64,000 bases of DNA from Cyanidioschyzon merolae (taxonomy: Eukaryota), in the NCBI GenBank assembly GCA_000091205.1, contig AP006484.2. The stretch is one strand, 5' to 3'. This document shows, piece after piece, positions 11,015 to 60,815 of this stretch. Made by a program: the position numbers and the translations under genes. The notes below the pieces were generated by a model, which was not told the DNA's origin, made no database searches, and worked only from the letters and a program-made list of their open reading frames with translations. The first letter of the stretch is position 1. Every line of letters begins with the position of its first letter.

Positions 11015-14000
11015 AAGCTTAACCGCGCGCCATTAGCTTGCGAGCCAGGCAGCTAATCAGCGAACGACACTTTGCTGGTATGGCGAGATCCGCGCTCGCA
11101 CTACTCATCGTCAGCGTTGACCTGGCTTGTGCGCCAAGTATGGTTACATGAACACTTGCATGATAGAAAGCCGCGAGAAGCTGGTTATCGCCCGTGTCTC
11201 TGTCCGTCATGGTCGCCTGCATGCCTCGTGAGCATTCGACCTCGGCCGACACTTCACACCGAAGGGCTTACTGGTTCAGTGTAATGTTCGTCGAGCTCTG
11301 CAAGGGTCCCCCGCCCAAAGGGTCCTCGACGAGCCTTACTTTTTCCTGCAGTTTGATGGGTGAGCACTTTCATAGCGTTGATGATAGATGTTTTTGCAGA
11401 ACAATGGCGCAGGTGCCTTCCACCATACTCAAGTTGGAGACGCATACCCACACATGGTAATCGGAGCGAGAACCGTTCAGATTTGAGAACTTTGTGCCTG
11501 GAAATTTTTCGCGTTCCTCGCAGCTCGGTTGTCTGCATCTCAAAAGTCTACGACGCAGATACCCGAGGCTGCCAAAGACCCTCGCTAACGCGACGCGTCC
11601 AACAAGATCGGACCGAGCTCTGGGCGTATTGCACTGTAAAAGGCGCATCGATGACAGGCGGACGAAGGCACTCTGCAGCAGATGGAGTTCGTGGCTGCGC
11701 CACTTGGTCTAACGGGTACTTGATATGTATCCTAGTCTCGAGTGCGTTTCGATTGTCTCAGCGTTCCGTGGTACCCGAATCTAAAGTTTTCATCTGTTGC
11801 TCTTGCCAGTCGTCGCGCTAGAATCAGAACGCAAAGTTCTGCAGCATGTATATCCGCAAGCACTTTCTGTACTTGTTTGTTTTCTCGCAGGTATCCTACG
11901 AACGGAATGTATCCTGCAGATTGGCCAGAGGTCCCAGAAACTGCTGATGCTGTCGCTTCTAGCTTGCGAGAGATGCGCACGCGTCTGCAAGCCAGTGATT
12001 CTGCGATGAGCAGGTGTATGGAGCACGCTCCCCGAAGTCGTAATGCTGGAAATCTTGCAAGTAAAGTACAAGTCATCCAAGCTGGTTTTTCACGACTGTC
12101 TCCTCGCCAATCCATCGTACTTCATAGGTTAAACGAGAAAGTCTACCAAACATGCCACCGGGGCTTGGGTTTCCGCACCACTGATACGAACGGCGATAAA
12201 GAGGCTCTGATGGACAAAGGAACATGCACGCTTCCACGAAAGACCATCATACGTTGAGCAAAACACAATCGATTTCGTACTGAAACGCGAATGCACCTTA
12301 ACGTAGGGACGGGTTCTCGTCCCACTCGATGATACTACATTTCGGGGAATTGGTAGACCTGAAAACTGGTACTTAAGGACAGGCGATCCGCTGTTCGGAA
12401 AGAAGAGACAAGAGAGCATTCCAAAGGTATCAGCCCGAGCGCCGATGCTATTATATGCCCGCCAACAAGTCGCCTGCAAGGCAGCTTCCTTCGAAACGTC
12501 ACCCTTTGCGCTCGCGTGCACTTCCGTGCTGGTGCTAGGTAACGTCAATGTGCATCTCTCAAATGCGTCTCATGAGTAGGCATCGGAGACTAGCGATGGG
12601 ATGCCCGGCGTGGTTGCGTTTTCTCTCTGCTCCAGTGTGGTCGAAAGCGTCTTCTCCGTTGTCATACAACCATCATGTCCCTTACGGATGCATACAAAGA
12701 TAGTTCGCATCCGTGATGCCAACGTCCTTCGACAATAAATTCTCTACCTTTATCAGCCCTGGACTGCTATCCTGGCAGTCCACTCATACGCGGGATGCAG
12801 CGGATAAGCTCGCTTGGATCCGTGGGCGTGCTCGCAACGGAACAATTGATCAAAGCGCACTTGAGGAATCGTTCATACATGCCGAAGAAAGGCGAGTTCT
12901 AAAGCAGACGTCCCCCTAGTGCTTCGGAATCATGAGCCAAAATCGAGTATGGACGATTTCGAGCACAACAATGCAACCGCGTTTAAGAAAAGAGAATTCG
13001 AGGAAATCACACGCCTATGAAGAGCAAGGGAATTCGAAGAACCTTACGAGGAATGACCGGATGGAAGCACTGTCCATGCAGAAAGCTCCGTCTGAAACTG
13101 TTGTCAAGGCCTCACAACTGATTCACGTCAACGGGGAGAATCTTCCACGAAATGAGATTCGGGACTGCATTGAAGATTGCACAAATTCCCAGACGAGGAT
13201 TGTTCGCCTTGCCACAACTCGTTGGGCAACTGTAATTAGGACTCACGGACACAGCTCTGCCAACGGTCCACAAACTTCATGAATCTATCCACCAAACCTT
13301 TGAGCGTAACGAAATCTGATGCTCGAGTCCTATCATTGAGCATCTCCTGATCCGAGGATCATAGACATATACGCAAGCTTCCACGAATACTTCGATGCAT
13401 CGCAGCGCCGCGTAGGCGCCCGAGAGAAATCTCCAGCACCGGTGCCACAAAGTATAACAGCAAGCGAGAAAACAAAAACATAAGCAGCTCAATATATCGA
13501 GCGATTCATGTGGCACAAACTATCGGCTTTGTAGCGGAGGAAAAACGAGTTGATGGAATGGTTTCCTGGGGTATCGATGGAGGCAAATGACAAGCTGGTA
13601 ATGGCGGAAGCGCCCGAGCTGGTAGCGAGTACGGATCAGGTGACTCTACAAGAGAGGGTGTGTGCATGGGCCTCGTCAGATCTTCCAGGATCGACGTGTT
13701 GTTCTCGACCCCGGGCCATTGGACGTCGAATCAGCAGCATGATTGAAACGTAACGTCTGACTTGCTCCCATTTTGCGGTCCTACGTTTTCCTGAACAGTG
13801 CGATCCGGGCGAATCAGAATCGCTCTCAGAGTGAGAGCGCCCCTGGCTCGCCAACCTCTTATTCAATGCTAATCCGAACATCAGAACAAAACACATGACA
13901 TTGCTGTAGACTCTACTGTATGGTACTCATTTGTTCTGGTTTGACTTTCAGAACGCCATCGCTGGCACCCGCAAGCAAGTATGAAGCATTCGAACACGTT

Positions 14001-16827
14001 CTCCAAGTGCATTTTAGGAGATTGTCCAAGGCCTGTCTCTCACACGCAGGGAATGGACAGCAGTTCACAGCACCGATAGAGGCCGACGGAATATCCATCT
14101 GGATACACTAGGTGAAACCTCCACATCGTATGACAAGAGTGGACACATTTTCCGTCATCTAACAGCATTAACGAGAAGGACCCGGTGGTTGACATGGTTC
14201 CTCGGCTGCCGGGCTCCGAGGCCGTCTTCGTCCATGTAAAGCCAGAACACGGAACCAAAGTCTTGAACGGCGAGCCGATGAACCTGCTCAACTTTTCCAG
14301 CGCTCGGTATCGTCAGGAGTCGGGCACGACGAATGCCACGAAACATACAAAACCAGAGGAAAGACGGCGCATGGACCCAGTTCGACACGCTGAGCACCGA
14401 ATCGAGCACAGGAGGGATTCGTTGTACGCTTCATTCAGAGCGTACATGAGCGTCCGAATGGCTTATGTGGGCGATCTTGAGCAGGAGCATATGCGACCGT
14501 GCAGCGTTCGCCGGCGATTTCGCTTGCGCGGAGCCAAGAAGCTCGTATTCGCCATCTTGTTTCATGAATCAAGCAACAAAATGACTCATACGTCGCATCG
14601 TTTCATGGTGGTATCCAGTGGCACTGGACACGCTGTGGCGCGCAGAGGCTGCACGCCGGCTACTTCGACGAGAACGTGTATCGAGTGCAGGAGGCGGTTC
14701 CGAGCGATTCCCGTAGGAGCGTTCAAGAAGCCATCCATGCATCACGAGCACGCGTGCCCACTGGAACGTATAGCAACGAGGTGCTTGAAACAGGGATGGA
14801 TGCACGAGCTGGTGTCCGATAAACTGGCTGGTATGTCCGATGGCGGGAAGATCGAATACTGAAGGCCTGCGGTGGTGTGCGTCGACCAACAACCATGCGC
14901 ACAAGCACTCTCTGAACCGAGACTCGAAGTTTCCGATCAACATGCAGGAATGCCTCATGTTGACGGAGCGTCCAGCGGGGTGGTATCGAGTGAGCTATCG
15001 GCGGCAGTGTTGAGTACACGGTATGCGCATTGCGCTGGGACGCTGAACACTTCACTGGACAATCCCTATGTCGCTAGGAGCCAGAGGCGACTGGATTCTC
15101 ATTCCAAGCAAGGTAGAGGTGCAGATACACGCGGCAATTTCGCAAGGCTGGAGCTCTCTATCTCTGCACTGGGAACGGTCTCCTCGGGTGTCTGATAGAT
15201 GATAACGGTATTCCGGCATTCAATAGGAATGCGTATAAGTGTAAAAAGGTTTATATAGTTTTACCACTGAAACAACTGCAAAAGACGCTTTGAGTCCATT
15301 TTCTATACGTTTGCTCACCGGCCTTGGACCCCCGATACACCCGTACCAGAATGAAATGGGGCGATTCCACTCATCGAACTCGGCCTTGCACGCTAATCTT
15401 TGAGTCCCTGCTCACTGTCATCAAGAACTGCCTTTGCAGACGCTTCCAGCATCTGCTTCCCGTCCCCTTCTCTTACCTATGGCTTTAAATGCGCTTCTCC
15501 CTACTTTACCACCATCTCCGTTGTCAGTAGTCTAAGGATGTCGCTGGTAGGACCAAAGCCGCGAATGCACCGCTACCGGCTGACGTCAACGCATGGTACG
15601 CTGAGGCAAATTTGCGATCCACGCCTCCTTTGCAATGTTCATTCTCTTGGTAAACAGATCCAGTACGACCCTCATAGCATTGACACATGATTGTGGTCAG
15701 CTATTCGCATACGTCGACCGCACCTCCGCCGACTTCTCTGAGCGCCGCTCTATACCATTCGAATGTTTGTTTTATCGCTCGGCACACGCCCTTGCCAGGC
15801 AAAAAAAGTCTCGCCTCGATGCCGCAGCCTACGATTGCGGCTCTCTTCTGAGCAATCGCTTTGGCGAGTACGCATTCCAATACATGCGAAAATACATAAA
15901 GTTCCATTTGATAGAGGATTTGTAGAACGCGACGTTGCTCATGGTGAAACAAGTTCTGATGAGAGAATCGAGGCTGGAGCTCACGTCGAGAACGTCGACC
16001 CGTCGACGCTCCCTTCGTGTCCGGCGGTGACGCATTCGCCTCTTGATACGATCGCTGTGCTACCTGAACTCCGAGTCCGGGTCTGTTTTCCGTGGAAGCA
16101 GAAGAAACGGGAGCTTCTGGTACCATATCCAAAGAGAAGCGTCACGCTGCTGTCGTGAAAAGCAGAATCATCGGGTACCACAAAGATAGGCGGATTTATG
16201 ATCCAAATGAAATCGAGTATTTGAGGCACCGTATTCGGTGAACGTTCGCCATGAATTTGCGAATATTTCCTCTGGGGACGATCCTCGAGAATCACTCTTC
16301 ATTGATCCCGTGGGCGCGCACTGCTATGCCGTCCAGGTGCCCTAAAAGAGAAGAATCAAAAAACTCAATGAATGCGCGACTTGAGCATGCTACACGTAGG
16401 GAAAGGAGAACAAATAAGGATTGTACTCATGAGTTGCATGATGGTTTCGGTTACTTTACGAACTCGTGTTCGAATCCGTCGAGATTCGTTTTGAATCGTG
16501 TGACGTGACGAGCACCAGCGGCAAAATGTCGAAACCATCCTTCTAAGAAGCCTATCGAGAATCCCATTACGAATTATGAAAGCGTAGGCCCGTCACAAAA
16601 GCGCTTGAAGTGTCGAGGCTACACACCTTGACCCATACTTGAAACAAAACGCAAGGCCGTATCAGACTGGCCAGTTCAGCGTCGCATGCCCGTCGGACTC
16701 GCGTGTCGCTAGTCGCAGTACCGGTCGCACGCCTCGTGCCAGGTTTCTGCGATACTAAGGCTCCAAGTCAGCAACAAAACAACCGGATTGTCGCGTTTAG
16801 CGTCCAACTGGAGAAAGCAACCGATCT

Positions 16828-23507: not shown

Positions 23508-24633
23508 GGCGTCGAATACGAGATACGATACGTAGGTTTCGAGTTTCAAGCTTTGTAGATGATTGTTTTCGATAAGGTTGTTGGAGTGAGTCCGTCCAAC
23601 CTTGATTTCGATGGAGTGTCAACGACCAGAGGTACGTGTGCTCAGCGAGCACGCCGCTTGGCGCTGTGCGTGTCTCTGAGTCGAGACGCCCCGTAGCAGT
23701 GCGCGGGTGTAACCGCTCACCGTGAAACGCGCCGCAACGCACCCACACCAGACCCCTAAAGTCCAGTTCACGAAAACCCCCCAGACTTGTAATAAGAGTC
23801 AGGAACACCACCAAGCGCACTGCAACCTAGTAGGAACACGGCAGTGCAGGATACCGTACCCGTCCGGGCGTTGCGTCCGTGCGTGCATCTCAGCGGCAAC
23901 GGTACACGGAGACAGCGCCGGATGATGCGTGTCCCGCCGTCGCCATCATCGATGTGCTGTCCGGGTGCACGCATGCGATTTTCGAAACCGCCGAAACGTG
24001 TACATAGGGGGGCGTTCTCCAAGTGGGCGCTCTTGGATTTCTTCGTTTTCCGGAGCGTCCAACGAATCTCCTATGTCCAAGTTCCATTACCCTCACTTGT
24101 CCTCAGCAATAGTGGTTGTTTCACAGGTTCTAACGTTCGCCGAGTGCATGGTTTGCTGCAGCGGTTGTAGTGTCTCTAGAGCCGGGTGCTGCCGAACTAC
24201 GATTCCGCGGTGCTTCTAGGGCTTCATCGGTTCAGGATACGTCAGGGACGTGCGCGCAGTGCAGCGGGCCCTTCAGGTAGTCGTCTGTCGAAGGGCGCCA
24301 GCGCGGCCCATAGACGTGCGTATACCGAGTCCGCCGAACTGCATTGTCGGACCGCGTGTACAGCATACTGCAGGTGCTACCATCCAGGAACCATCAACCC
24401 TGCGTATCGTGTATTCGGGTGAACGCGGGCACTTGCGGTTCCTCCCGGAACGCTGCTAGGGCTTTCGCCCAGAAACTAGGGGTGCAGCTTTGTCGCAGTA
24501 TAGGATGCATCGGGCAGATTCATCCGCCTTCTACGATCCTGTTGCTCACTTCGTACTTGTCCATGGAGCATGCGCTGCATCGACGCTATCAAGCATAAAC
24601 TGAGCACCGGTAACACTTTTGGTTACCGATTTT

Positions 24634-39006: not shown

Positions 39007-39421
39007 AAGAAACATCCTAGAGCGATGTGATGACGGTGTTGTATCCGCATTGGCGCGTGGAGGACGCTCGCGGATGCAGCAAGCAGACATCGACATCGGC
39101 ACCGGATGGAAAACACGAAACGCTACGTACATCCAAAGGCAAGTACGGGGCATGGACGTCTCATGAAGCAAGTCCGACGCTCTCCCTATCACCGATACCC
39201 CTTGCAAAGTTTAGCATCTCTGGTTCAAGGACACGATCTGTCTGACAAAAAGCAAAGTGTCACTCTACGGGATCATCAACATCATTATCGACATCACTAC
39301 CAGTATCAGTGAGATGATTGGTAGCGTGCTAGGGCAGCGCGGCAAAACGCTGCTGCGCTCGTTCAAATGCGCGCGCGCTCACCATGCGTGCAGCGCTGCT
39401 GCTGAACGAGCGCAAACGCAC

Positions 39422-47836: not shown

Positions 47837-48533
47837 GCCAGTACGACACTTGGAACGCTCCTTGCTTTCGCCAAAATCGCCCGCAGTTCACGCCAAAATC
47901 AGTTCTGAAAACGAAGTTGATAACCTTGGCTTCCACCACTACAACTACAAAGACCACCGGTACCAGTACCGAGTTTGAGGCAGCTCGTCGTCAAGCGTCC
48001 TGTGTCAGCGCAAACAGGTTCATGAATGAACGCAGGGCGGACGCGTGCCGACGTCGACGCCTGCGCTTCCGCCGGTCAACGAGAGCTGTGCAAGCAGACC
48101 GGCCACAGGCGGCTCGGAAGCTGTCCATGCGACGCTGTGCTCGTATCGTTACGCGTTATTCAAGGTATCCAGGGAGCTCCGAGTCCGAGTTGTACATTGC
48201 CGTCAGGAAAAGCATACATCAATGAGCACCAGATCCTCGGGGTTTCAGCAGTCGGCACGACCCGGGCTTCGCTCGGGGCATGTACGTCCGTTCCGACAAG
48301 CCTCGGGGTGCCGAGTGCCTGTCGCGAATGCTTCCAACGATGCCTGTATCGTCGCTGCGGACACAGCGTCGAGACGAAACGACATTGTCGTACGCTTTGG
48401 GACGCATGGAACCTGAGCCTCTCGCTACGAGGTGCCGCTCAACGCATGACCAGAACTGAGGCAGCTGGAGCATATTCCCTCCGCATGGCAATGATGGTAT
48501 GGACCCTGGAATGAAGACTGCCGCAGAACCTCT

Positions 48534-48572
48534 GGTGTGTGTGTGGGTGTGTGTGTGTCTGTGTTTGTGTCT
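48534..48572. repeat. Imperfect (TG)n microsatellite
   Basis: The sequence is tggtgtgtgtgtgggtgtgtgtgtgtctgtgtttgtgtc. Confidence 0.75.
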
Positions 48573-51500
48573 ATGGAGAGCCTGCATCAACGGCGTGCCG
48601 GATACGAAAGCGCTATAGGCGTGGAAGCTACCGCGCATGCTTACAGACCGTGCCTCGTAGAGAGGGTATGTTGTTGCGGCCTCTTTGGTTGCAGAGGGGC
48701 TCGTTCGTCGGCCTCGCAGGTTGATATCCGTACATCAGCATACGTTTCAAAGTTTACGTCGGAAACGGCACTGCTAGAAAGGTTTCTCTCTCGTGAAGAG
48801 CCGCAGGACTAGTACCGACACTGCAGCCTCTTCCCAGACTCCGGGGCCGCTGCGTACTCGAGCGGGTCCAGGAACTGTGCGCCGTTTTTGGAGACAACTG
48901 CGTCAGTGACTGGACACCAACTGGGAGCTGCTGAGAACATGCACTGAGTTGCAGCGTGCGCTGCTCAGCCTGCGCTGGACAGGCAGGCGACCTTGCTTCG
49001 ACGCTGCCGGCGCCTTCTCGAGGCCGCCTTCCAGGACATCTAGTGGACCGGCCTGCAGCATTAGCGTTGCTTTGAGGACACGTGTGTATGCAAGTATGCA
49101 CCAGCCAGTTGGAGCGCTGGTTCGCTGCTGATGGACGAAGGCTGCGCACTAGTCGCAGTTGTCACGCGGAAAGCTTTCATGAGCTTTCTCGCACGGCGCG
49201 CTCCGAAAGCCGCGTCATCATAGGCATCCATTCCGCGGATGCACCTGCCGAGGACACGATTCGGAAGCCAGCGTCGCCTTTGCGCTTGCTGATGCTGCTA
49301 ACTCTGCCGAGCAGTGTGCGATGTGGCATCGCTGCTTTCTGCAAACGAACCTAGAACGCATTCTACGCTGCATCGACGCCCGAGATGCATACTCGGAACC
49401 GCGCGCTCGCGAATACTTGATCTCTCTTGGTAGGTTCGTTACGAGACGCGAGGTCTTGTCTCTGGAGCAGGTCCATCTTGTGTTGCGCTCACGAGGCTAC
49501 CGAGCGGAAACTTCTGCGGATCGAGCGATTCCGCGGTGCTCGGTACCGTTTCCAGGCCTGTGCACCTCGGCCGCCACGCGCGGCAACTGGGACCTCTCGG
49601 ATGAGCGAATGCTAGCCCGGGGTATCGCTCTGGTTGCCGAGTTTCTCCAGCGTGTCGCTTTGCATCGCTGTCGGGTCGCTTACGTGAGCTACCTGTCGTT
49701 ACCCAGACCGATATCGAGCCCCGAGCCCGCGTCGAGTACGCTGCACCTCGAATGGATGCGCGTAAAGGTGCTGCGAAGTCGTCGTATCGCCAGGGCAGTG
49801 ACAGCAGCGATGCAGATAGGATTGCGCTATGCACGAAACCCGTGGATGCATACCTCGTCCGGTCTTGTATTCCCTAGCAGAGTGCTGTTCTGAAAGTGAT
49901 GCAACCTGGGTGTTAACGTGTCAGCGCTGAAGTACATAGCCTCATCGATGGCGCCTGATTTGCCGCATCGATCCCTGACCACCTGGGTCGCGGGCGTGCA
50001 GCGCCTCGTTCGACCAGATGCATATGCACCTTGAGACACAACAATATCGACAAACATGTACCGTGCGATTCACGAGCGGGACTTTGACATATTGCAGCGT
50101 CCCCGGTGCGCGGTCTGCGACAGCGGCATGCGGCATGTGAGCGCTACCGCTGGCGTCGCAAACGTGCCCGCCGAGAACCCGAAGCACAACTAGAGCCGCG
50201 TTGGATTAAAGTGGGACAGTGAACTGCTTGTTCTGTTCCTGTTATTCGATTCATTCACGGATTTTGTAGACGTACAGCCTCGACGCTCAAGCCAAGTCCC
50301 GCTGTAACGGCCTACGGATTCGAAAGCAATGCTGAAGACTCTCAGTCGTTTATTCGGAGTTGCTCCTTTGACGCCTCGCTGCTGGAGTTCCTTGCCCTAA
50401 TGGTATCAAAATGAACCGCGACGCTCTGGGACTAAAGTTCGTGAACCAATGGATACCATCATCGGTGCCGTGCGTTACGCATTCCCAAATGACGCATTCT
50501 GCATGTTTTCGATCCTTACGTTTCAAGGCAACTTGTGGGCACAGTCATTGGCCTCGCTAAATTGTCGCGGAGAAACGACTTGATGTCATTCGTTGGGAAA
50601 CTCTATGCGAGATCATCTCGCAAGTCCATTGAACTTGTTACGTCAAATCATCGATTCCGTTCCCAAGACACATCCTGTTTCGCACATCGCCATCGACGAC
50701 ACAATATTCAGCATCTGCATATTACATCGCATCGGAAACACCCCGAGAGGCTCATGTCTCTGCTATTTGCATGGAAACGGGTCCTGGACTCGGACTTGAG
50801 TCGTCCCAGCGATCGGTTCGGGTGGAGCATGCGTCACCGCCTTGCACGAAGGCAACGTGTGCTGATCGGGATATTTCGATGAGCTCTGTATCCTCGATTT
50901 ACCTACCGGTGCTTGTTTCATCATGGATAACATTGCGTTCAACAAAGTCTCTCTTGAATGGAGCGGCGTGCGCTTGCGACTGCAGCGGACTGCGTACTCG
51001 CCAAGAGCGTTGCACAGCAGAAGCGCATGATCATAGGGCAAGGCACCGCGCGCGCGAAATCGGAGGACGACATCCCAGTGAGCAGTTTTTCACATGTCTG
51101 GGGCATGCACCAATCCACGAAGCAAGCCGTGGAGCGCCAGAGGGCTGCACTCGGCGGGCAAAATGGGGTGTCCATAGAGGAGCACCTCAGCCCAGTCCGG
51201 TGTCACCGCTGGGATGAGCGCATCGATGCCATGCACATTGAAGATGAATACAGGAAGCGAAGCGTCGATCACGAATTCCGCCTGTCCATGACTTGCATTG
51301 ACTAGAACTTGAAGAGGCGAAATCAGTACATGAACGCTGCCACCAATATCCCAAGACGGCAGAAAATGGAGCCCGAGGGAAGCTGGACAACCATCGTACA
51401 CGCACCCAGAGGCCAGAATGAGGAATGGAAAGCAGTCGCAGCAGAACAAACCAGCAAGGTCTGGTGTTCATGTCAATCGGAAGAGACCCATTTTCTAGTC

Positions 51501-51841: not shown

Positions 51842-53626
51842 CTAGTAGTAGGATTCTCCTGGAATATCGTCCATGCCATCGTCGGCGCCTTTCTTGTCGT
51901 CCTTCTTTTCGGGAATCTCTACAACCAGCGCCTCGGTTGTAAGCACAAGGCCCGCCACACTTATCGCGTTTTCGATCGCACTGTTTGTCACTTTCACGGG
52001 ATCGAGGATACCCATTTCGATCATGTCGCCGTACTCTCCGGTAGCTGCATTGTATCCGTATCCAAAGGGTTTCCCGGCCACGTTTCCGAGCACGACCTCT
52101 CCCTCAAGACCGCAGTTCTCCGCGATCTGGACAAGTGGTGACTTGAGAGACCGCCGCAGCAGCTCCACTCCCAGTTGTGTGTCCTCGTCGCCGCCGACCT
52201 TGGCCTTGATCTCATCCATCTTCTGCATCATATAGACGAGCGTTGCCCCGCCGCCTGGAACAATACCCTCCTCGATCGCTGCTCGGCAGCTATTAATCGC
52301 ATCCTCGTACCGCAGCTTTTTGTCTTTGAGCTCGCTCTCGGTAGCGGCACCCACTCGAATTCGAGCGACACCTCCGCTGAGACGGGCAATGCGCTCATCG
52401 CACTTTTCGCGGTCGAACTGGGTGTCAGCGTCTTCTCGCTCCTTACGAATCTGCTTGATGCGCTCTCTTACCTCTGCCTCATGGGATCCATCCGAGATAA
52501 TTGTCGTCGTCTCCTTGCCGACGACGATACGCTCAGCGCGGCCAAAGTCCTTCTCAGTGACACCCTCTAGCGTCATACCAAGCTCACCGGCAACCACTGT
52601 GGCTCCAGTCACGATAGCGATGTCCTGCAGGTACGCCTTGCGCCGGTCACCAAACCCGGGCGCTTTGATCGCACAGACATCAAGAACGCCGCGCATCTTA
52701 TTGACCACCAGCGTTGAGAGCGCCTCGCCCGTTACATCGTCGGCGATAATGAGCAGGGGCTCTTTGTCTTTGACGCATTGCTCAAGAATTGGAATGATTT
52801 CGTTCACGTTCGAAATTTTCATATCAGTGATCAGGATTCGCGGCCTCTCTAGCGTGCAAGTCTGGCGATCCTGCTCCTTCACGAAATATGGCGACAGGTA
52901 ACCACGATCGATCTCCATGCCCTCGGAGAACTCGACATCGTCCGTGATCGTTTGCGACTCCTCCACAATCGTGCTGCCGTTCTCTCCAACTCGCTCAAAA
53001 GCCTGCGCAATGATACGCCCAAACTCCTCGCTATTGCCTGATGCAATCGTCGCGATTGCTTCAATGTCCTTGGGGCTCTTGATCGGCACTGCTAGTTTGC
53101 GGATCTCCGCGCGCAACAGCTGGCCTGCCTTGTCCAGACCGCGCTTCAGTGCAATGGGGTTCGCGCCAGACTCAACCAGCTTCAGACCCTGGTTAATGAT
53201 AGACTGAGCGAGCACTGTAGAGGTTGTGGTTCCGTCCCCGGCCCGCTGATCCGTCTTCGACGCCACCTCCTGAAGGAGGCGCGCACCCACGTTCTCCGTG
53301 GGATCCTCAAGAGAAATATCTCGCGCGATCGTCACCCCGTCGTTCACGACTTCAGGTGCACCGTACGAGCGCTCCAGAACGACATTACGCCCCTTTGGAC
53401 CCAACGTGATGCGTACCGCATCTGCAACTGCATTGATACCGCGAACAAGCCGACGACGAGACTCCTCGTGGAACACCACCTGCTTGGCAGCCATACTCAC
53501 AGACAGCACCGAAGAGCGCCCCGGCGTCGTCCTCCTTGACAGTTTCTGCCCCATCTGCAGACGACCTGACGCATCAAACCTTCCAACGAAGCCATTAGCG
53601 ACGAACATGCACTGCATTGGAACCAT
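51842..53626 (-). CDS. CPN60: Chaperonin 60 (Cpn60/GroEL), plastid-type, with a ~45-aa N-terminal presequence
   Basis: AAKQVVFHEE...PEVVNDGVTIARDISLEDPTENVGARLLQEVASKTDQRAGDGTTTSTVLAQSII matches the chloroplast Cpn60 VNDGVTIAR signature rather than the mitochondrial KDGVTVAK. The ORF-track start at 53692 is GTG and the first ATG is 53626. The presequence is R/S/G-rich. Confidence 0.88.
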   Translation of the reverse strand: MVPMQCMFVANGFVGRFDASGRLQMGQKLSRRTTPGRSSVLSVSMAAKQVVFHEESRRRLVRGINAVADAVRITLGPKGRNVVLERSYGAPEVVNDGVTIARDISLEDPTENVGARLLQEVASKTDQRAGDGTTTSTVLAQSIINQGLKLVESGANPIALKRGLDKAGQLLRAEIRKLAVPIKSPKDIEAIATIASGNSEEFGRIIAQAFERVGENGSTIVEESQTITDDVEFSEGMEIDRGYLSPYFVKEQDRQTCTLERPRILITDMKISNVNEIIPILEQCVKDKEPLLIIADDVTGEALSTLVVNKMRGVLDVCAIKAPGFGDRRKAYLQDIAIVTGATVVAGELGMTLEGVTEKDFGRAERIVVGKETTTIISDGSHEAEVRERIKQIRKEREDADTQFDREKCDERIARLSGGVARIRVGAATESELKDKKLRYEDAINSCRAAIEEGIVPGGGATLVYMMQKMDEIKAKVGGDEDTQLGVELLRRSLKSPLVQIAENCGLEGEVVLGNVAGKPFGYGYNAATGEYGDMIEMGILDPVKVTNSAIENAISVAGLVLTTEALVVEIPEKKDDKKGADDGMDDIPGESYY

Positions 53627-53744: not shown

Positions 53745-53781
<37 letters not shown>

Positions 53782-53782: not shown

Positions 53783-54096
53783 ACGCGCCATTGAGGCGCG
53801 CGCGCGATGTGCATCACGGATCGAGAAAGAAGCGGGTCGACGCCCGCTGTGGTACGGCAACGCCGCTCTGTTTCCGTGCAGCATCCGCACCGGCGCCTGA
53901 GGCGCCATGGCGGTCAATCAGGACAGGCACCCGGCACACGATAGAACGTATGAAACGACCAGAATATCCGAGAAGAAGTAAAGGTAATGGAATTTGGAAT
54001 CAGGGCGTGGATCGACGGATGCTTCACCGTGCACTGAAGAATACAAACAAAAGAAAAAGAGAGAAAAGTGCTCGATTAGAGAACGCTGGCCTATTT

Positions 54097-54665
54097 TTCA
54101 GATGACAAATCGTTTACATTGACCATGGATCGCAGCATTCGGAATGGAGAATGGCTTTCGGGAAAGCGTCCATCATGAAGCACCTCCCTTCAAGTTCCAT
54201 TACCAGTACTTCTTCTTATCAGATATACAGGTCGTTTCGTATGTTGTGTCGTGCGCCGAGCCTGCCGAAAGCGACAGCAATAGCGCATATACCGCTGAAG
54301 CAGGTGCGACACGGAGACAGAACGGCTTTGCCATTACCAATGAAAGCGTCGACTCGAGGCGTGGTTCCTCCGACATAGGGTCGGAGCACATAGTAATTCT
54401 GGGAGCCTGCAAGCTGCCCAGACGGACGTGCAACCTGCGACAGCGCGAAGCGATATACTAGGAGTCCGCTGCGACCAGGGCGACGCCCGGGCGCAGCATA
54501 ACTGCGCTTATTCCCGGAAGGAACTGTGTTGAGGACGAGCTGTTCATGTCTCGCCACAGCACCCGCCACTGGGGGAGCACGAAGCACGAGCCCGGGACAC
54601 TCGTCCGGCTCGCGGGGCCTTCTACCTAGAAGGTAAACTTTCGAAGATACGGGAACTTTTCACCG
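54097..54665. repeat. Left arm of a large near-perfect inverted repeat (about 569 bp)
   Basis: The reverse complement of 55435-56005 matches 54097-54665 with 1-2 mismatches, for example ttcagatgacaaaTcgtttacattgaccatggatcgcagcattcgg. ORF pairs 54144-54461(+)/55641-55958(-) and 54219-54587(-)/55515-55883(+) are identical mirror images apart from one H/Y change. Confidence 0.95.
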
Positions 54666-55434
54666 TTCCAACGCTCATTATCAAGGTCAAAAGAAACTGT
54701 TATCTAGTTGCTGGTCAGTGTTTAGTTTCTGTTCTTTCTTCCCTAGGAGAATGCTCTCTGCTCGCGGCCTGGCACAACTGGAGGGCCCACCAGTCCGAGG
54801 ACTAGCCTTTGTTGCCGCTGTTTCTATGCAAAGCTCTGCCGCGCGCGCTCCTTCTCTCTTTCTCTCTCTACATTCTCCTGTCCGCGCCCTTGGCCAAAAC
54901 TCTGAAAAGATATCGCTCGCGTCACTCGTGTTCCTATGTAGGGTATATAGATACGCACTCACAGACGCCTCCGGGCCTTTCCTTGACGGGCCGCGTGCTA
55001 CCGGATTCAGCTTCTCCTCGTACACTACGAGCCTGTCATCGTTTTCTGCTGCTGCCTCCGGCCCTCCGTTCGTTGCGGCCAAGGTCCCTGTCATGGGCTT
55101 CCTTCCCCGTCGCTCGAACACCCCGAGTGAACCCACTTTCAGAGCTTCGCCGAAACAACTAGACCTCTCAGACGGGGGTGGTGTGTGTGGGGCTTTAAGA
55201 TACTTGCTCTTTAGTACACAGTCTGTGGCTAGTTTGTTTTGTTGTTTTTTTCTTTTGTGTTTGGGCAGGTGTCTCCGTCTTGATTGGCTGCGTATCGATG
55301 AATATCACGCGTCGTGTCTCATGCCTGCCTGATCTCCCAGGCGCGCTCACCAAGCGAACTATAGAATCACGTACAGAGACTCATGACTAACGCGCAACGA
55401 TATGAAAATTTCCCCCTCTGAGCTAAACGTTAAA

Positions 55435-56005
55435 AAGAGGAAAAGCTTCCCGTATTTCAGAAAGTTTACCTTCTAGGTAGAAGGCCCCGCGAGCCGGACG
55501 AGTGTCCCGGGCTCGTGCTTCGTGCTCCCCCAGTGGCGGGTGCTGTGGCGAGACATGAACAGCTCGTCCTCAACACAGTTCCTTCCGGGAATAAGCGCAG
55601 TTATGCTGCGCCCGGGCGTCGCCCTGGTCGCAGTGGACTCCTAGTATATCGCTTCGCGCTGTCGCAGGTTGCACGTCCGTCTGGGCAGCTTGCAGGCTCC
55701 CAGAATTACTATGTACTCCGACCCTATGTCGGAGGAACCACGCCTCGAGTCGACGCTTTCATTGGTAATGGCAAAGCCGTTCTGTCTCCGTGTCGCACCT
55801 GCTTCAGCGGTATATGCGCTATTGCTGTCGCTTTCGGCAGGCTCGGCGCACGACACAACATACGAAACGACCTGTATATCTGATAAGAAGAAGTACTGGT
55901 AATGGAACTTGAAGGGAGGTGCTTCATGATGGACGCTTTCCCGAAAGCCATTCTCCATTCCGAATGCTGCGATCCATGGTCAATGTAAACGTTTTGTCAT
56001 CTGAA
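55435..56005. repeat. Right arm of the large inverted repeat (about 571 bp)
   Basis: See the left arm. The outer boundary falls at gtcatctgaa, after which the flank diverges to ataatcagg. The inner boundary falls near gaagcttttcc. Confidence 0.95.
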
Positions 56006-56210
56006 TAATCAGGTGCGCATCGGACACGTGCCTGTCACCTGTCCGCGCGCCGCAACGCCGGATCCGGATGCAGCGATACACGTCGCATAACCCGAGATGC
56101 GGGCGCTTATGCATCACTGCATACACGCATGACGGGCGTCCATGTAACACCGAACGCGCCTTTTTGTTCATTGTCTAGACGAGTTAAAAGGTTGATTATC
56201 CTGTGAATTG

Positions 56211-56888
56211 ATGACGTCGCAGACACTTGAGAACAGCGAGGACACCGAGAGCCGGCGGGTGGGAACGCTAGCCGACCGCGAGCTCGTTGCCGAGCTCATG
56301 TACCCGACCTCCGAAGAAAGCGCGTTCAGTTGTTTCCGGTGCGAAAACTGCGCAAGAACGGTGTGGGTGTGCCTTTGCGGCGCCGAAATAGTGCCCGGAA
56401 CGACACGGACGGAAGATCTTGTACCCTTACGTCGGGAAGGAGGGCGTTTGTCCCTGGTATCCTCGGGGTGGTCGGCTGCGAGTCAGTGTTCCACAGTCGG
56501 GTCGCCGTCGCTAAAAGCGCCTCCAACTCCAACAGCTGGCCATCGGGTGCCATCATGCGATCCTGTGCTGGATGTGAAGTACGCGGCAAGCAATGGACCG
56601 GTGCTCGGCGATGATGGAAAGACGGTGTTTTGCAGCATGGACTGTTATTGGAGTGCGTCGTTGGACCCAAATTGTCAGCGGATTCGCCTGGTTTACGAGA
56701 GAAAGGGCGCGCGCCCTAAGATTCTGGAACGTCGATGCGGTAAACCCGGCGGCACATTGGAGGCGGGAGCGCCTTGTCGTCCGACACGCGGGCGTCCGCC
56801 AACCGATGAGCGAGGAGCACCCGCCGCGTTGCTGCATCGCCGCCCCGATGCCATCGAGTGCAACGCGGGGGCGTCGTCACCGCAGCTG

Positions 56889-56920
<32 letters not shown>

Positions 56921-57158
56921 CCGCGTCGATGTATCCAAGAGGCTGCTCCAGAAACAAGCACAGCTACTGCGAATTCCGCAGTCGACGCGCACTGCAGAAG
57001 AAAACGATGCCTCGCTCTGGGACCGTCTGCGGTGTGGGAACCAGTGCCATCAGTCGGGTGATGTACAGCATGCGATGTACGAGCACCATGCCTACTTTGG
57101 AGGAACCTTCCGCCGAACGGTTGGTGTTGAAGTGCTTCGACGATACACCTGGTGCTGA
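56211..57158 (+). CDS. Hypothetical Cys-rich, Ser-tract protein (possible zinc-binding; FCSMDCYWS motif)
   Basis: The first ATG is at 56211 (the track start is TTG). Motifs include SCFRCENCARTVWVCLCG, FCSMDCYWSASLDPNC and CGNQCHQSGDVQHAMYEHH. An S9 tract is encoded by (GTC)n at 56889-56917. Confidence 0.35.
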
Positions 57159-58269
57159 TGTCTACCAGGAATGACTGCGAACGGATCTGCCCTTTCCTGT
57201 ACAGGTATACTAGCGTCACGATTCAGACATCCGGATCGGTACTGTTGGGTTTTTTGTGTACGATTTTTGTCTAACCATTCCCCAGTCCATTACTCTGTGT
57301 ACGTGCTCATCATCTATAAAAGATCGCGTAGCGATGATTCAAACACAATCGGATAGGGCGAGCAGCCACAGCTCGGACCTGAACTCGGGGAGCGTTTTCA
57401 TGACGTATCGCGTACAGGCAGTCGCAGGTTTCGGGTCGACGATGAGATCGCAGCGCCGCAGCACCAGCGTCGGCACACCATTACGAAAACGGTGCTCGCA
57501 TCCACCGAAGCTTTCATGAAGGAACAGTGCGTCGCGGACGTCGTCGTTGCATGGCCTTTGGTGGAGTGCGTGCGCTTCAAGGTGTCAACGCGGCTGCCTT
57601 GTAAGCAACAAGCGCGCCCTATGCAGACGTTTGTGGGTACCTCAACTGCATCATGAGGTACACACAGCGACAGCCCTACTCCTGGGCGTTCGAACAGCCC
57701 ATACGACGTCGCCCGGTGGTGAACAGTAGTATATGCTTATCTTGGGTGTCCAGATTTGGCAGCGCACGTACCCGAATTCACTACAATTGCGAATGGATGC
57801 CCACGAGATATCGAGCCTAACGTAAGCATTTGGTCTTCATCATGCGAGAGTGATGCGTGGGACGAGAAGCTCCAGCTCGCATAGATGATGCTGATGCCGC
57901 ATTTTTCGTGCATAGAGCTCCTGTCCTGAGCGGATTCCTGCGAATACCGCAGCCCCCAGTTCAGTGTTTCCCCTCGGACCAGAGCTTTATTGGATCTAGC
58001 GATCCGCCCAGTGGCTCGTCCGCTGCGCACGACTCGAGGAGGCGGGGCGCTGTTTTGCTTTATACGGTTTTGCAATGATAAACCTAACGACGGATCCCTC
58101 TGATGCACCACAATTACCGGAATGAGGACGTATTTGCCTGCAGAGTGTCGGACACGTGTCCATCATCGATCGGAGTAGCGTCTCGCGCGGTGCACGCATT
58201 GCGCACCGTAAGCGCGCCTGGGAGATCGGGCAGTCAACTGACGCGACGCGCGTGCCGTTGTTGAAGGGA

Positions 58270-60770
58270 AATGGGATCCTGATCAGGAGCGTGTAGCTCT
58301 CTTTTAAAAGTTGTATTTCCGTTAACTTGCTAGGCAAGTGTAGTTTTTCAGCTCACTCGTGTTTCAAACCTCAAGTAAAAATATTCGATTGGGGTTTACC
58401 GGTTTATAACAGAAGCGTTCAAAAGCGTTTTTTTTCCAAAAAAAAAACTAAAAAAGGAAAGCTATGAAAAAAGTTGACGATCTTGGAGGCCCAGTGTCGC
58501 TGGCTGCCAGAAAAAAAAACAAAAACCAGTGCCGAGTACAGAAGAAAAGGAAGAGGAAAAGAAGCAAACAATTTAGAGGGCCTACGTCGTAGGCAGCAAG
58601 AAAGACGCCTGTACGACGAGACGGTGGTGAAAGTCTGTTTTCTTGAACATGACTAGGATCCGTACGATGAAAAGTTGCGAGACGCTATCAGAAACCATGT
58701 CGACTCGTTCGCCAAGAGTATTGTCAAGGCGTCGTCAGGATTGGTGCATTTGGCGAGGGAGATGCATTGCAACGTGACGCACATGGAAACGGTCGAGATT
58801 CCGAATGAGTTCTTCGATAAGACCTTTACTCGTCACCTGATGCTTGGTACAGAGGAAACGCGGAAGGAAAATGAGCTGGTGCAAATCCTCCACGAAAAAC
58901 ATCCCCTTTACAGCTTCAATGGTACTCGATACTAGGCTTACCGGGATATTTATCCATATGGGCCCATGAAGTACCCCACGAATCTGAAGGACCATTTGAC
59001 GGTGAACCTCGAACGTTTCATGATACGTGCCGTGGTTACACTCTACCTGGGCCTATCTCGCAATGGAAAATGGGCGATTATCAATGGCGTCACGAACGAC
59101 CGCAAGCGTGAAGATGAGGTCGAATTTGTCGACAAGAAGACATCACGCAGGAGCACGAATGAAGCTTCTGGAATCCGTGCGGTTACAGAAGAGCACCGTG
59201 CGGTACTGGGGTTGGTTCATCCAACAGACAAGATATCAGAGTTGAAAAAAGACAAGGAAAGATACTATCGCCTCGTCCTGCGATATTTCGTGTTTTTGGA
59301 CCGAGAACTCGAACACAAGGTGGAGATGAAGCTGAATGGCGAAAAATGAAGAGTGGGAGAGACCGAAGGCTTTCCTAAAGGGGAAGCGCTTAAACGTGGT
59401 TCCAATGTGCAACATCAGGTCACATTTCGTGACTATCGACTCCAGAATCCTTTACGGCATCATGAAAGGGATCAGTACCGTGTTCAATGTTAGCAGGGAA
59501 TACTTCACCGGCGAAAACCGGGAGACGTACTGGAAGAATATCTTCGATTTCAAACGCCTGAGAGTGAGCAAGCAGAAATTGTTCACTGGGATGATCGAAA
59601 GCGATGGAGTAGCCTTGTGTGTACACGATCGGCGGTTGAAGACAAATCGTCCAGTTCCGCCCTCGGTCTCGCCCGTGCCGAAGCGTGAAGAAAAGGAGGC
59701 GGATCCTGTGACGCAGGAGGTGGAGGATAACGACCTTGTCGTTGATGCGGTGAAGCATGAAGAAAACAAGCAGGCGGATCCTGAGACGCAGAAAGTGCAT
59801 AACAACGACTTTGTCGTTGGCGCGGACCCCGGAAACACAAATATCATAACCATCGCAGTACCCAAACGTGCGGAGGATTGTACTGACGGTAACTTACGTC
59901 AGAAAGACATACGTATTTTTAAGTTCTAAAGATAGAGGCATTACCGAGAATCCGGTATAATAAATGCGAAGAAGAAAATCGGGACATGGAATGCAGGAGT
60001 CAAAGAGCACCTTGAAGCTTTGAGCGAGGTGACGAGCCGCGGAATAGACTTTCAAACTTTTCGGGAGTTCATGAAAGTTCTCGTTCCTCATTGGTAGGCG
60101 CTGTGGGAGGCGTATACAAAGCCCCGGTGGGCTCGTCTGCGTATGAACGTTTACTGCGGGAAACAGCGTGCATTCGCGAACTTTTTCAATGAGTTGAGTG
60201 CCTTCACAGATGATGAAAGTCACAGGCTCGTAGTAGCGTACGGAGCAGGGCGCTGGGCGTCGAGAACAGGTACTACGCCAGTTCCGTCAACAAGAACGTA
60301 CAAGGAGTGCGCGAGGCATTTTGCCGCAATGCCTGTACATGTGTTCCGAACATCGTATACACACCACGACTTGGAGTGCACACTTCTGAAAGTCGAGGTG
60401 GAAAAGTGCCAGCGGAGCCCGGAGGATATCAAATTGTACGGACCGCTGAAGGAAGAGCAAATGGAAAGCAGGGCAAAACTTCGAGAGCTACTTGCGCTTG
60501 TGTGCACAACCAATGATGGCAAGAAACGTATAAAATTCCTGTATCGCGACTTTAAGGCCGCTATCAATATGAGGACATGTGCAGTGCTGGAGAACAGAGC
60601 TCCGGAATGGACAGGAGGGAATTTGTGGGGCAACATCTCAAAGTGGAACTATATGAGAAACAATTGGAACCATTCGTACGTGACCGGTCGAGGATAACTG
60701 GGAAGCGTCTGCACCTCAGTGGATGACCTCGTGTCTGGGGCGCGTCACTCGCCAATATTCTACTCCGCTG
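58270..60770 (+). mobile_element. TnpB/Fanzor-like (OMEGA-family) transposable element, copy 2 (about 2.5 kb)
   Basis: Homologous to the element at 960-3350 from the 5' block (tcaagtaaaaatattcgattgg...aacagaagcgttcaaaagcgttttttttccaaaaaaaaaac) through to the 3' block ending ...gtctgcacctcagtggatgacctcgtgtctggggcgcgtcactcgcca. Estimated nucleotide identity between copies is about 65-75 %. Confidence 0.65.
58675..60697 (+). CDS. TnpB/Fanzor-like RuvC-family nuclease, coding capacity spread over 4 ORFs in different frames (58675-58935, 58966-59349, 59336-59929, 60143-60697). The gaps may be short introns or frameshifts
   Basis: RuvC-I reads [22 protein letters not shown]. The canonical RuvC-II region [12 protein letters not shown] lacks a Glu. 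The TS-zinc-finger region reads [14 protein letters not shown]...EKCQRSPED. RuvC-III reads RDFKAAINM, followed by a 45-aa C-terminal tail. There is paralogy to the copy-1 fragments, for example [36 protein letters not shown] versus LGLVNPRGKLSDVIKKDEVRCYSLILPYFMVLDRVLE. Confidence 0.55.
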
Positions 60771-60815
60771 GCGGCAGCGTTTTTCTTCTGAAAGGCGTTT
60801 GTTGTTGCTGGCGAT

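What the first reader, a model, noticed from the sequence alone, without database searches (positions are those of the whole stretch)
54097..56005. 1.9-kb near-perfect palindrome (570-bp arms, 770-bp spacer) in the divergent intergenic region between Cpn60 and a Cys-rich ORF
The arms 54097-54665 and 55435-56005 are reverse complements with only 1-2 mismatches over about 570 bp. This is far better conserved than the two Fanzor-like copies, so the repeat is either recent or actively homogenised. The spacer is CT/GT-rich low-complexity sequence. The unit carries no transposase. The immediate flanks (ctattt|ttcagatgac ... gtcatctgaa|taatca) show no clear target-site duplication. Candidate explanations are a foldback or long-TIR non-autonomous DNA transposon, a structural palindrome prone to cruciform formation, or a source of hairpin (inverted-repeat) RNA and siRNA if transcribed from either flanking promoter. 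It sits inside the shared 5' region of two divergently transcribed genes, so it could also act as a symmetric regulatory module.
Basis: seen in the sequence. Interest (0 to 1): 0.7.

Follow-up and report, generated by a model that had tools for sequence, protein, structure and literature searches.

The report
Inverted transposon pair homogenised by gene conversion
The 1.9-kb "palindrome" upstream of the red-alga Cpn60 gene is two old, oppositely oriented copies of an already catalogued repeat (the 5' module of the Fanzor element CMe-1A, also known as TE-N2_CMe); gene conversion has made their outer 546 bp nearly identical, so this is an ordinary genomic feature, not a new mobile element or RNA device.

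Summary
The inverted repeat is real. Core arms are 54097-54642 and 55460-56005, 546 nt with 3 substitutions; a degraded 18-nt extension gives 568 nt at 98%. Independent metagenome assemblies reproduce it.

The window is the left end of Cyanidioschyzon merolae 10D chromosome 2. The repeat sits between Cpn60 and CMB023C.

Each arm is the 5' end of the published CMe-1A Fanzor1 repeat, whose 5' 635 bp equals TE-N2_CMe (Bao & Jurka 2013):
- consensus 2-644 = window 54101-54745 (+)
- consensus 2-698 = window 56001-55307 (-)
- each is about 82% identical to the consensus

Over TE positions 1-545 the two copies are 99% identical and share almost all their differences from the consensus. Over 546-644 they are only 62% identical, have diverged independently, and end at different TE positions. 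So these are two old separate insertions, partly homogenised by gene conversion. They are not one foldback transposon.

The arm ORFs are not conserved in the family. The sister genus Cyanidiococcus lacks the structure. C. merolae is reported to lack RNAi, which argues against the siRNA idea.

Assemblies show the 0.78-kb spacer in both orientations (4 versus 12 contigs). This suggests recombinational flipping, but short-read assemblies cannot prove it.

Interest is low.

The parts
54097..54642 (+). Left arm, homogenised core. It corresponds to positions ~1-545 of the CMe-1A / TE-N2_CMe repeat, with the TE 5' end outward (towards Cpn60).
   Evidence: 3 substitutions against the right arm; part of the match of consensus 2-644 to 54101-54745 at 82% identity (nhmmer E 7e-131). 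Nearly all differences from the consensus are shared with the right arm.
54643..54745 (+). Unconverted 3' tail of the left TE copy (TE positions ~546-644, about the full TE-N2_CMe length).
   Evidence: 76-77% identical to the consensus but only 62% to the right copy; shares 16 of 24 derived sites with a paralogous TE-N2 copy on another chromosome.
54746..55306 (.). Spacer core with no CMe-1A homology. 54746-54960 is 82% identical to sequence that follows the paralogous TE-N2 copy on another chromosome. Short CT-rich (54839-54892) and GT-rich (55219-55278) tracts are present.
   Evidence: No Pfam hit for spacer ORFs. No credible Rfam hit.
55307..55459 (-). Unconverted inner tail of the right TE copy (TE positions ~698-546). 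It extends about 55 bp further into CMe-1A than the left copy does.
   Evidence: shares only 1 of 26 derived sites with the paralogue that resembles the left copy.
55460..56005 (-). Right arm, homogenised core. It corresponds to CMe-1A positions ~545-1, with the TE 5' end outward (towards CMB023C).
   Evidence: part of the match of consensus 2-698 to 56001-55307 at 81% identity (nhmmer E 4e-137).
53833..54030 (-). Third, older fragment of the same TE module (positions 59-253). It lies head-to-head with the left arm, upstream of Cpn60.
   Evidence: 81% identical to the consensus and ~71% to the arms.
51842..53626 (-). Flanking gene: chloroplast chaperonin Cpn60 precursor (BAM78846 / XP_005535132).
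56211..57158 (+). Flanking gene: CMB023C, a Cys-rich hypothetical protein (BAM78847).
58200..60797 (+). 5'-truncated CMe-1A (Fanzor1) copy, TE positions 648-3169, downstream of CMB023C. Its first ~50 bp overlap the TE interval at the inner end of the right copy; this is the 43-bp inverted match 55308-55350 / 58250-58208.

Best explanation
The 1.9-kb palindrome is not one element. It is two separate, old copies of the 5' module of the C. merolae repeat CMe-1A, lying in opposite orientation with their 5' ends outward. CMe-1A is a ~3.2-kb Fanzor1-carrying element, and its 5' 635 bp also exists as the short repeat TE-N2_CMe.

The two copies sit in the Cpn60-CMB023C intergenic region:
- The left copy is TE-N2-like, TE positions 1-644.
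- The right copy is a CMe-1A 5' fragment, TE positions 1-698.

Both are absent from the sister genus Cyanidiococcus. I infer that they inserted in the Cyanidioschyzon lineage.

Shown: non-allelic (arm-to-arm) gene conversion, probably several events in both directions, has since made TE positions 1-545 nearly identical in the two copies. It left their inner tails as diverged as any two family members.
- The conversion tract stops outward at the TE 5' end, because homology ends there.
- It stops inward at position ~545.

Inferred: the same homologous-recombination activity, when resolved as a crossover, would invert the 0.8-kb spacer. Both orientations are seen in assemblies.

No function of the structure is indicated. 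The arm ORFs are fortuitous.
For: Organism and flanking genes: exact protein look-ups give C. merolae 10D BAM78846 and BAM78847 on a 457-kb chromosome.

Family identity:
- The CMe-1A consensus came from Additional file 2 of Bao & Jurka 2013 (PMC3627910).
- It matches window 54101-54741/54745 (positions 2-640/644, 81.7%) and 56001-55307/55308 (positions 2-697/698, 81.1%), with nhmmer E 7e-131 and 4e-137.
- The paper states that the 5' 635 bp of CMe-1A is 95% identical to the whole of TE-N2_CMe.
- It also reports ~70 TE-N2_CMe and ~150 CMe-1A copies, each ~80% identical to the consensus, with no TIRs and undetermined TSDs.

Gene conversion, from the three-way alignment:
- TE 1-545: left-right 541/547 identical. 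Each copy is 82-83% identical to the consensus, and the ~97 differences from the consensus are shared.
- TE 546-640: left-consensus 77%, right-consensus 73%, left-right only 62%, which is independent divergence.
- The left copy's TE homology ends near position 644; the right copy's continues to 698.

Lineage test:
- In TE 546-644 the left copy shares 16 of 24 derived sites with a paralogous copy on another chromosome. The right copy shares 1 of 26.
- The homogenised arms share 38 of 97, in clustered runs (37 runs versus 46.6 expected, p = 0.025). This indicates a mosaic of both lineages.

Exchange in populations: arm haplotypes at 54491-54527 occur with both spacer ends, 116-152 nt away.

Other points:
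- The structure is absent from the syntenic 1.4-kb intergenic region of Cyanidiococcus.
- The arm ORFs have stops and frameshifts in the consensus and in another copy, and no Pfam or Rfam hits.
- Spacer orientation: 4 contigs match the reference and 12 are inverted.
- Efficient homologous recombination in C. merolae is established (gene targeting, PMC3764038, listed).
Against: - No read-level or long-read data were available, so the inversion polymorphism could come from how short-read assemblers traverse a 546-bp exact repeat. Many long contigs break inside the arms.
- At this shallow population divergence, arms within one genome are not closer to each other than to their orthologues. 'Ongoing' homogenisation therefore rests on haplotype sharing, which chimeric metagenome assembly could also create.
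- The mosaic signal is modest (p = 0.025).
- I could not search the whole 10D genome, so a second copy of the whole composite elsewhere is not formally excluded.
- The TE-N2_CMe consensus itself was not available. Identity with it is inferred from the paper's statement about CMe-1A positions 1-635.
Confidence: 0.85

Rival explanations
1. It is a single foldback or long-TIR non-autonomous DNA transposon that inserted as one unit between Cpn60 and CMB023C.
For: It has near-perfect 546-568-bp terminal inverted repeats with sharp outer ends. The arms are TE-derived. The structure is absent from Cyanidiococcus. A second, degenerate pair of 5'-module fragments with similar outer-to-outer spacing exists at 48165-49794.
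Against: - There is no target-site duplication.
- The source family is reported to have no TIRs.
- The two halves continue inward as independently diverged TE sequence and end at different TE positions.
- They belong to different sub-lineages (16/24 versus 1/26 shared derived sites).
- The spacer matched nothing at the 48-50 kb pair.
- The closest paralogue is a single copy, not a palindrome.
Confidence: 0.04
2. It is a functional device: an invertible promoter or regulatory segment, or a hairpin-RNA locus, maintained by selection in the shared upstream region of two divergent genes.
For: Both spacer orientations appear in assemblies from many samples. The structure and its boundaries are conserved across all sampled wild Cyanidioschyzon populations. 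The arm segment 54144-54461 has fewer polymorphic sites than the inner arm. The TE 5' module lies upstream of the Fanzor ORF (ATG near consensus position 906, read from the consensus) and so may contain a promoter, which in both arms would point inward; this is inference.
Against: - C. merolae is reported to lack RNAi machinery.
- There are no conserved ORFs and no RNA-family hit.
- The sampled populations are only 1-3% diverged, so conservation carries little information.
- Cyanidiococcus manages the same gene pair without the structure.
- Orientation calls from short-read assemblies are unreliable.
Confidence: 0.06
3. It is an assembly artefact, or a very recent one-off inverted duplication private to the reference strain.
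For: Palindromes with near-identical arms are a known failure mode of assemblers. Many metagenome contigs break in the arms.
Against: - The same arms, boundaries and both flank junctions are found in more than 15 independent contigs from more than 12 samples. These include two 17-kb contigs spanning the whole structure.
- The arms carry copy-specific SNPs.
- From memory: the reference is a finished clone-based Sanger assembly.
Confidence: 0.02

Closest known systems
TE-N2_CMe / 5' module of CMe-1A (Fanzor1-carrying repeat of C. merolae; Bao & Jurka 2013, Repbase)
   Same: Each arm, together with its inner tail, aligns to consensus positions 2-644 or 2-698 at ~82% identity. That is the typical divergence of family members. 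The arm's outer boundary is the element's 5' terminus. No TIR or TSD is seen, as described for the family.
   Different: Here two copies lie in inverted orientation 0.56 kb apart, and their first 545 bp have been homogenised to 99.5%. Ordinary family members are ~60-65% identical to each other; for example, arm versus the telomere-adjacent copy is 57%.
Arm-to-arm gene conversion in genomic palindromes (human and ape sex-chromosome palindromes, willow W; see PMC3403216, PMC8327919)
   Same: Inverted arms separated by a unique spacer are kept at very high identity by intrachromosomal gene conversion. Spacer inversions by arm-arm crossover are known in those systems.
   Different: This case is 100- to 1000-fold smaller, carries no genes in the arms, and has arms of independent TE origin, not one inverted duplication. 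It lies in a compact, mostly asexual unicellular alga.
Foldback transposons and long-TIR MITE-like elements
   Same: Long terminal inverted repeats, no coding capacity, TE-derived sequence.
   Different: No TSD, no subrepeat structure in the arms, no further copies of the composite found, and arms that continue as two independently diverged TE copies.
Flip-flop inversion between inverted repeats by recombination (plastid IR isomers, yeast 2-micron plasmid, bacterial invertons)
   Same: A unique segment bounded by inverted repeats appears in both orientations relative to its flanks.
   Different: No site-specific recombinase or recombination site is present, so any flipping would be by general homologous recombination. 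Coexistence of the two isomers has not been shown at read level.

Membership tests
CMe-1A / TE-N2_CMe repeat family (C. merolae) | Sequence homology to the family consensus over the whole 5' 635-bp module | tested here: met
   blastn gives 81.7% over consensus 2-640 (left) and 81.1% over 2-697 (right). nhmmer gives E 7e-131 and 4e-137. The consensus was taken from PMC3627910 Additional file 2.
CMe-1A / TE-N2_CMe repeat family (C. merolae) | Copy boundary coincides with the element's 5' terminus | tested here: met
   Consensus position 2 aligns to 54101 and to 56001, within 4-8 bp of the arm ends. A paralogous copy next to a different gene ends at the same TCAGATGAC terminus.
CMe-1A / TE-N2_CMe repeat family (C. 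merolae) | Dispersed multi-copy family, with copies ~80% identical to the consensus and no TIR or TSD | tested here: met
   Eleven further CMe-1A-related segments lie in this 64-kb window, and one copy lies on another chromosome. No TSD was found at the arms. Genome-wide copy numbers (~70 and ~150) come from the paper only.
CMe-1A / TE-N2_CMe repeat family (C. merolae) | Direct identity to the TE-N2_CMe consensus itself | not testable with these tools
   The TE-N2_CMe consensus is not in the held supplements. The link rests on the paper's statement that it is 95% identical to CMe-1A positions 1-635.
Foldback / long-TIR transposon | Target-site duplication flanking the whole unit | tested here: not met
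   The flanks are ...GGCCTATTT|TTCAG and CTGAA|TAATCAGG, with no direct repeat.
Foldback / long-TIR transposon | The two arms are one sequence duplicated as part of a single element, and the composite is itself repeated | tested here: not met
   The inner TE tails have diverged independently (62%), end at different positions (644 versus 698), and belong to different sub-lineages. No second composite was found in the window or at the paralogous locus. A whole-genome search was not possible.
Palindrome maintained by arm-to-arm gene conversion | Arm identity far above that expected from the age of the copies, with shared derived substitutions | tested here: met
   Arms are 99% identical over TE 1-545 with ~97 shared differences from the consensus, against 62% in the adjacent 546-640 segment.
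Palindrome maintained by arm-to-arm gene conversion | Evidence of continuing exchange between arms | tested here: inconclusive
   The same arm haplotypes are linked to both spacer ends, and the lineage signal is a mosaic (p = 0.025). However, arms within one genome are not closer than orthologous arms, and metagenome assemblies can be chimeric.
Recombinationally invertible (flip-flop) segment | Both orientations of the spacer exist relative to unique flanks | tested here: inconclusive
   Four metagenome contigs plus the reference show one orientation and 12 contigs show the other. All are short-read assemblies crossing a 546-bp exact repeat, and no long reads were available.
Hairpin-RNA / siRNA locus | Host has Dicer/Argonaute machinery, and small RNAs map to the arms | not testable with these tools
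   No expression data were available. The literature states that C. merolae lacks RNAi machinery (PMC11376382 abstract), which argues against this reading.

The most novel reading that the evidence does not exclude
The 0.8-kb spacer really flips in vivo by homologous recombination between the two TE arms. Both isomers would then coexist within populations, or even within clonal cultures. Because the segment lies in the shared upstream region of Cpn60 and CMB023C, its orientation would alter expression of one or both genes. That would be a recombinase-independent, TE-built invertible switch in a eukaryotic nucleus.
Probability: 0.06. Interest if true: 0.55.

Novelty: new member of a known kind. 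Interest (0 to 1): 0.2.

Why it matters
Mostly this is a clarification. A striking palindrome in a famously streamlined genome is explained by a catalogued repeat family plus gene conversion, so it should not be pursued as a new transposon class or RNA device.

It has modest value as a compact, datable example of non-allelic gene conversion between transposon copies in C. merolae. That organism has efficient homologous recombination and no RNAi.

It is also a candidate natural inversion polymorphism that a handful of long reads or a PCR assay could confirm.

Finally, it shows that the 5' module of the Fanzor1 element CMe-1A is scattered through the intergenic regions of the first 64 kb of chromosome 2. 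That may interest people studying Fanzor element biology.

Tried and rejected
- **Rfam and tRNA scans:** Rfam at gathering thresholds on the whole window and at E ≤ 1 on 53.6-56.3 kb gave nothing credible. The tRNA scan gave nothing.
- **Pfam on arm and spacer ORFs:** nothing.
- **Coding test of the arm ORFs:**
  - The 105-aa ORF is called as 'hypothetical protein' in metagenomes, in 11 variants of equal length.
  - Both substitutions inside the 122-aa ORF are synonymous, but that ORF has no ATG.
  - Both frames are broken in the family consensus and in another copy. I rejected them as genes.
- **An older nested palindrome centred at 54094:** this is explained instead as a third TE fragment lying head-to-head with the left arm.
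- **L031 as a diverged orthologue of the palindrome, with an 80% second arm:** rejected. It is a chimera between the chromosome-2 locus and a paralogous single TE-N2 copy upstream of the BAM80034 orthologue.
- **One full CMe-1A split by an inversion around CMB023C** (suggested by the TE 648-698 overlap between the right copy and the truncated copy at 58200):
  - Rejected because gene order and orientation match Cyanidiococcus.
  - The predicted junction geometry also does not fit.
- **Long contigs:** 72.7-kb and 58.9-kb contigs were fetched to settle spacer orientation, but they break in the arms.
- **Metagenome scan with the arm terminus:** it returned only six contigs, all already known.
- **10D locus of BAM80034:** the look-up failed because the protein is not on record.
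- **Concerted-evolution matrix:** uninformative at this shallow divergence.

Full report
**Observation**

The inverted repeat exists as described. The repeat finder reports one pair, 54093-54660 and 55442-56009 (568 nt, 98% complementary, 781 nt apart). It is the only long inverted repeat in the window.

Aligning the arms base by base gives a core of 546 nt (54097-54642 paired with 56005-55460) with three substitutions, at 54110, 54387 and 54468. The innermost ~18 nt are visibly degraded, with three mismatches and one indel. The arm terminus occurs nowhere else in the window and is not expected by chance.

The spacer is ordinary complex sequence: 52% GC and pyrimidine-biased on the + strand. 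It has only two short simple tracts, so 'low-complexity' is an overstatement.

**Source and context**

Exact protein look-ups identify the window as Cyanidioschyzon merolae 10D, on a 457-kb chromosome.
- The left flanking gene is the chloroplast Cpn60 precursor (BAM78846, 53626-51842, minus strand).
- The right flanking gene is CMB023C (BAM78847, 56211-57158, plus strand).

The window begins with CCCCATT-type repeats. I take these to be the telomere, from memory of the C. merolae repeat AATGGGGGG, so this would be the left end of chromosome 2. No Rfam family or tRNA lies in the region.

**The structure is real**

Close relatives of 10D (97-99% identical) are abundant in JGI and ENA hot-spring metagenomes.
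- Two 17-kb contigs from different samples carry Cpn60, both arms, the spacer and CMB023C.
- More than 15 further contigs from more than 12 samples reproduce the two flank-arm junctions and the two arm-spacer junctions.
- Many long contigs (35-73 kb) stop inside an arm, as expected for a true repeat.

In all contigs the arms stop matching at the same inner position, 54643.

**What the arms are**

Low-stringency searches showed the arm is not unique. There is a degenerate fragment just upstream of Cpn60 (53833-54030), another at ~24.1 kb, and a nearly full-length diverged copy at 254-929. The last lies directly in front of the telomere-adjacent Fanzor-like element.

Bao & Jurka (Mob DNA 2013, PMC3627910) describe the single Fanzor1 family of C. 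merolae, CMe-1A:
- The consensus is 3169 bp, with ~150 copies, each ~80% identical to the consensus.
- It has no TIRs, and its TSDs are undetermined.
- Its 5' 635 bp is 95% identical to the entire short repeat TE-N2_CMe (~70 copies).

I took the CMe-1A consensus from their Additional file 2 and aligned it to the window:

| Consensus positions | Window coordinates | Strand | Identity / score |
|---|---|---|---|
| 2-640/644 | 54101-54741/54745 | + | 81.7%, E 7e-131 |
| 2-697/698 | 56001-55307/55308 | - | 81.1%, E 4e-137 |

The arms are therefore the 5' module of a catalogued repeat, with the element's 5' end at the outer boundary of each arm. The same search maps eleven other CMe-1A-derived segments in the window:
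- the full copy at 254-3371
- the 5'-truncated copy at 58200-60797 (two adjoining matches)
- body fragments at 9754-10015, 10091-10283 and 13019-14998
- 5'-module fragments at 23992-24176, 39030-39242, 48165-48402, 49516-49794 and 53833-54030

**Why the arms are so similar**

A three-way alignment of the consensus, the left copy and the right copy is decisive.

| TE positions | Left vs right | Left vs consensus | Right vs consensus |
|---|---|---|---|
| 1-545 | 541/547 (99%) | 82% | 83% |
| 546-640 | 62% | 77% | 73% |

- Over positions 1-545, essentially all ~97 differences from the consensus are shared by both copies.
- Immediately inward, over 546-640, the differences are not shared. This is the pattern of two family members that diverged independently.
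- The left copy's TE homology ends near position 644, the length of TE-N2_CMe. The right copy's continues to 698.

So two old, separate copies of different length sit in inverted orientation. Their outer 545 bp have been overwritten to a common sequence, which is non-allelic gene conversion. The tract ends outward where homology ends, at the TE terminus, and inward at position ~545.

**An independent lineage marker**

A single TE-N2 copy upstream of the orthologue of BAM80034, on an 810-kb chromosome, is 82% identical to 54094-54960. That stretch covers the left copy plus ~215 bp beyond it.
- In TE 546-644 the left copy shares 16 of 24 derived sites with this paralogue.
- The right copy shares only 1 of 26.
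- The homogenised arms share 38 of 97, in clustered runs (37 runs versus 46.6 expected, p = 0.025).

This suggests the arms are a mosaic built from both lineages by several conversion events.

**Population evidence**

Arm haplotypes at 54491-54527 occur linked to both spacer ends, 116-152 nt away. That is consistent with continued exchange between the arms. Chimeric assembly of strain mixtures could mimic it, however. The pairwise difference matrix is too shallow to show concerted evolution.

**Not a gene, not an RNA**

The 105-aa ATG ORF in each arm is called as a hypothetical protein in metagenomes. A 122-aa ORF on the other strand is identical in both arms but has no ATG. Both frames are interrupted by stops and frameshifts in the family consensus and in the telomere-adjacent copy. 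Neither has a Pfam match. I treat them as fortuitous.

**Age and distribution**

Cyanidiococcus yangmingshanensis keeps the local gene order (PPO, Cys-rich gene, Cpn60, Mpp10). Its Cpn60/Cys-rich intergenic region is 1.4 kb, with no palindrome and no arm homology. The insertions are therefore specific to the Cyanidioschyzon lineage. The homogenised structure predates the split between 10D and the sampled wild populations.

**Spacer orientation**

Relative to the unique flanks, the spacer has the reference orientation in four metagenome contigs (L005, L022, L025, L032). It is inverted in twelve (L002, L003, L004, L006, L007, L020, L021, L023, L027, L028, L029, L035).

Crossover between 546-bp inverted repeats at 99.5% identity would produce exactly this. 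C. merolae also recombines homologous DNA efficiently (gene targeting, PMC3764038). But every one of these contigs is a short-read assembly that had to cross a ≥380-bp stretch where the arms are identical. Assembler behaviour, random or deterministic, cannot be excluded. I regard flipping as plausible but unproven.

- TE origin and homogenisation are right.
- A single foldback or long-TIR element is not supported. There is no TSD, the family has no TIRs, the halves are of independent origin, and no second composite was found.
- Hairpin siRNA is unlikely, because the alga is described as lacking RNA interference machinery (PMC11376382).
- A regulatory role is untested. The only hint is that the 5' module lies upstream of the Fanzor ORF (consensus ATG near position 906), so it may hold a promoter. 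In both arms that promoter would point inward.

**Verdict**

This is an ordinary, well-explained feature: an inverted pair of known repeat copies, partly homogenised by gene conversion. It is of minor interest as a clean small-scale example, and as a candidate inversion polymorphism that long reads or PCR could settle quickly.

Noticed in passing
window 1-3371: The window opens with CCCCATT/CCCCCCATT repeats, which look like the telomere. A full-length but degenerate CMe-1A Fanzor1 element follows at 254-3371, so the element abuts the chromosome end.
   Followed up: partly
window 48165-48402 (+) and 49516-49794 (-): This is a second, degenerate inverted pair of CMe-1A 5'-module fragments with 5' ends outward. 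Its projected outer-to-outer span is ~1.86 kb, close to the 1.9 kb of the palindrome. The spacers are unrelated. It could be coincidence, or a hint that this module tends to end up in inverted pairs.
   Followed up: partly
window 53833-54030 vs 54097: A third 5'-module fragment lies head-to-head with the left arm. Its projected 5' end (~54088) falls within ~12 bp of the left arm's 5' end. The flanks of the left, right and paralogous copies are all T-rich just outside TCAGATGAC, which may reflect an insertion-site preference.
   Followed up: partly
window 55307-55359 and 58199-58252: The right TE copy ends at consensus position 698. The 5'-truncated CMe-1A copy downstream of CMB023C starts at position 648. 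The two therefore share a ~50-bp interval in inverted orientation on either side of the gene. A simple inversion model does not fit the gene orientations. It may mark a module boundary within CMe-1A near the end of TE-N2_CMe.
   Followed up: partly
L027 (JGI 3300053675, Ga0556031_002700), 1356-2179: In this contig the CMB023C-side arm carries a 256-bp insertion. It reads arm positions 1-127, then the sequence of window 53964-54092 (the Cpn60-side flank), then a full arm. The junction lies at the short homology between the arm and the older TE fragment. It is either a structural variant or an assembly chimera.
   Followed up: no
L031 (JGI 3300050746, Ga0506610_01750): This contig joins the chromosome-2 right arm and spacer (about 100% identity as far as window ~54950) to a paralogous TE-N2 locus upstream of the BAM80034 orthologue on another chromosome. 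It is most likely an assembly chimera formed through the 82%-identical repeat. A real ectopic recombinant is not excluded.
   Followed up: yes
window 53745-53781: A perfect (CGG)12 microsatellite lies ~120 bp upstream of the Cpn60 start codon. Several short-read contigs end near it.
   Followed up: no
window 9754-10283, 13019-14998, 23992-24176, 39030-39242: Further CMe-1A body and 5'-module fragments sit in intergenic regions. Several of the 5'-module fragments retain only roughly the first 190-250 bp of the element.
   Followed up: no
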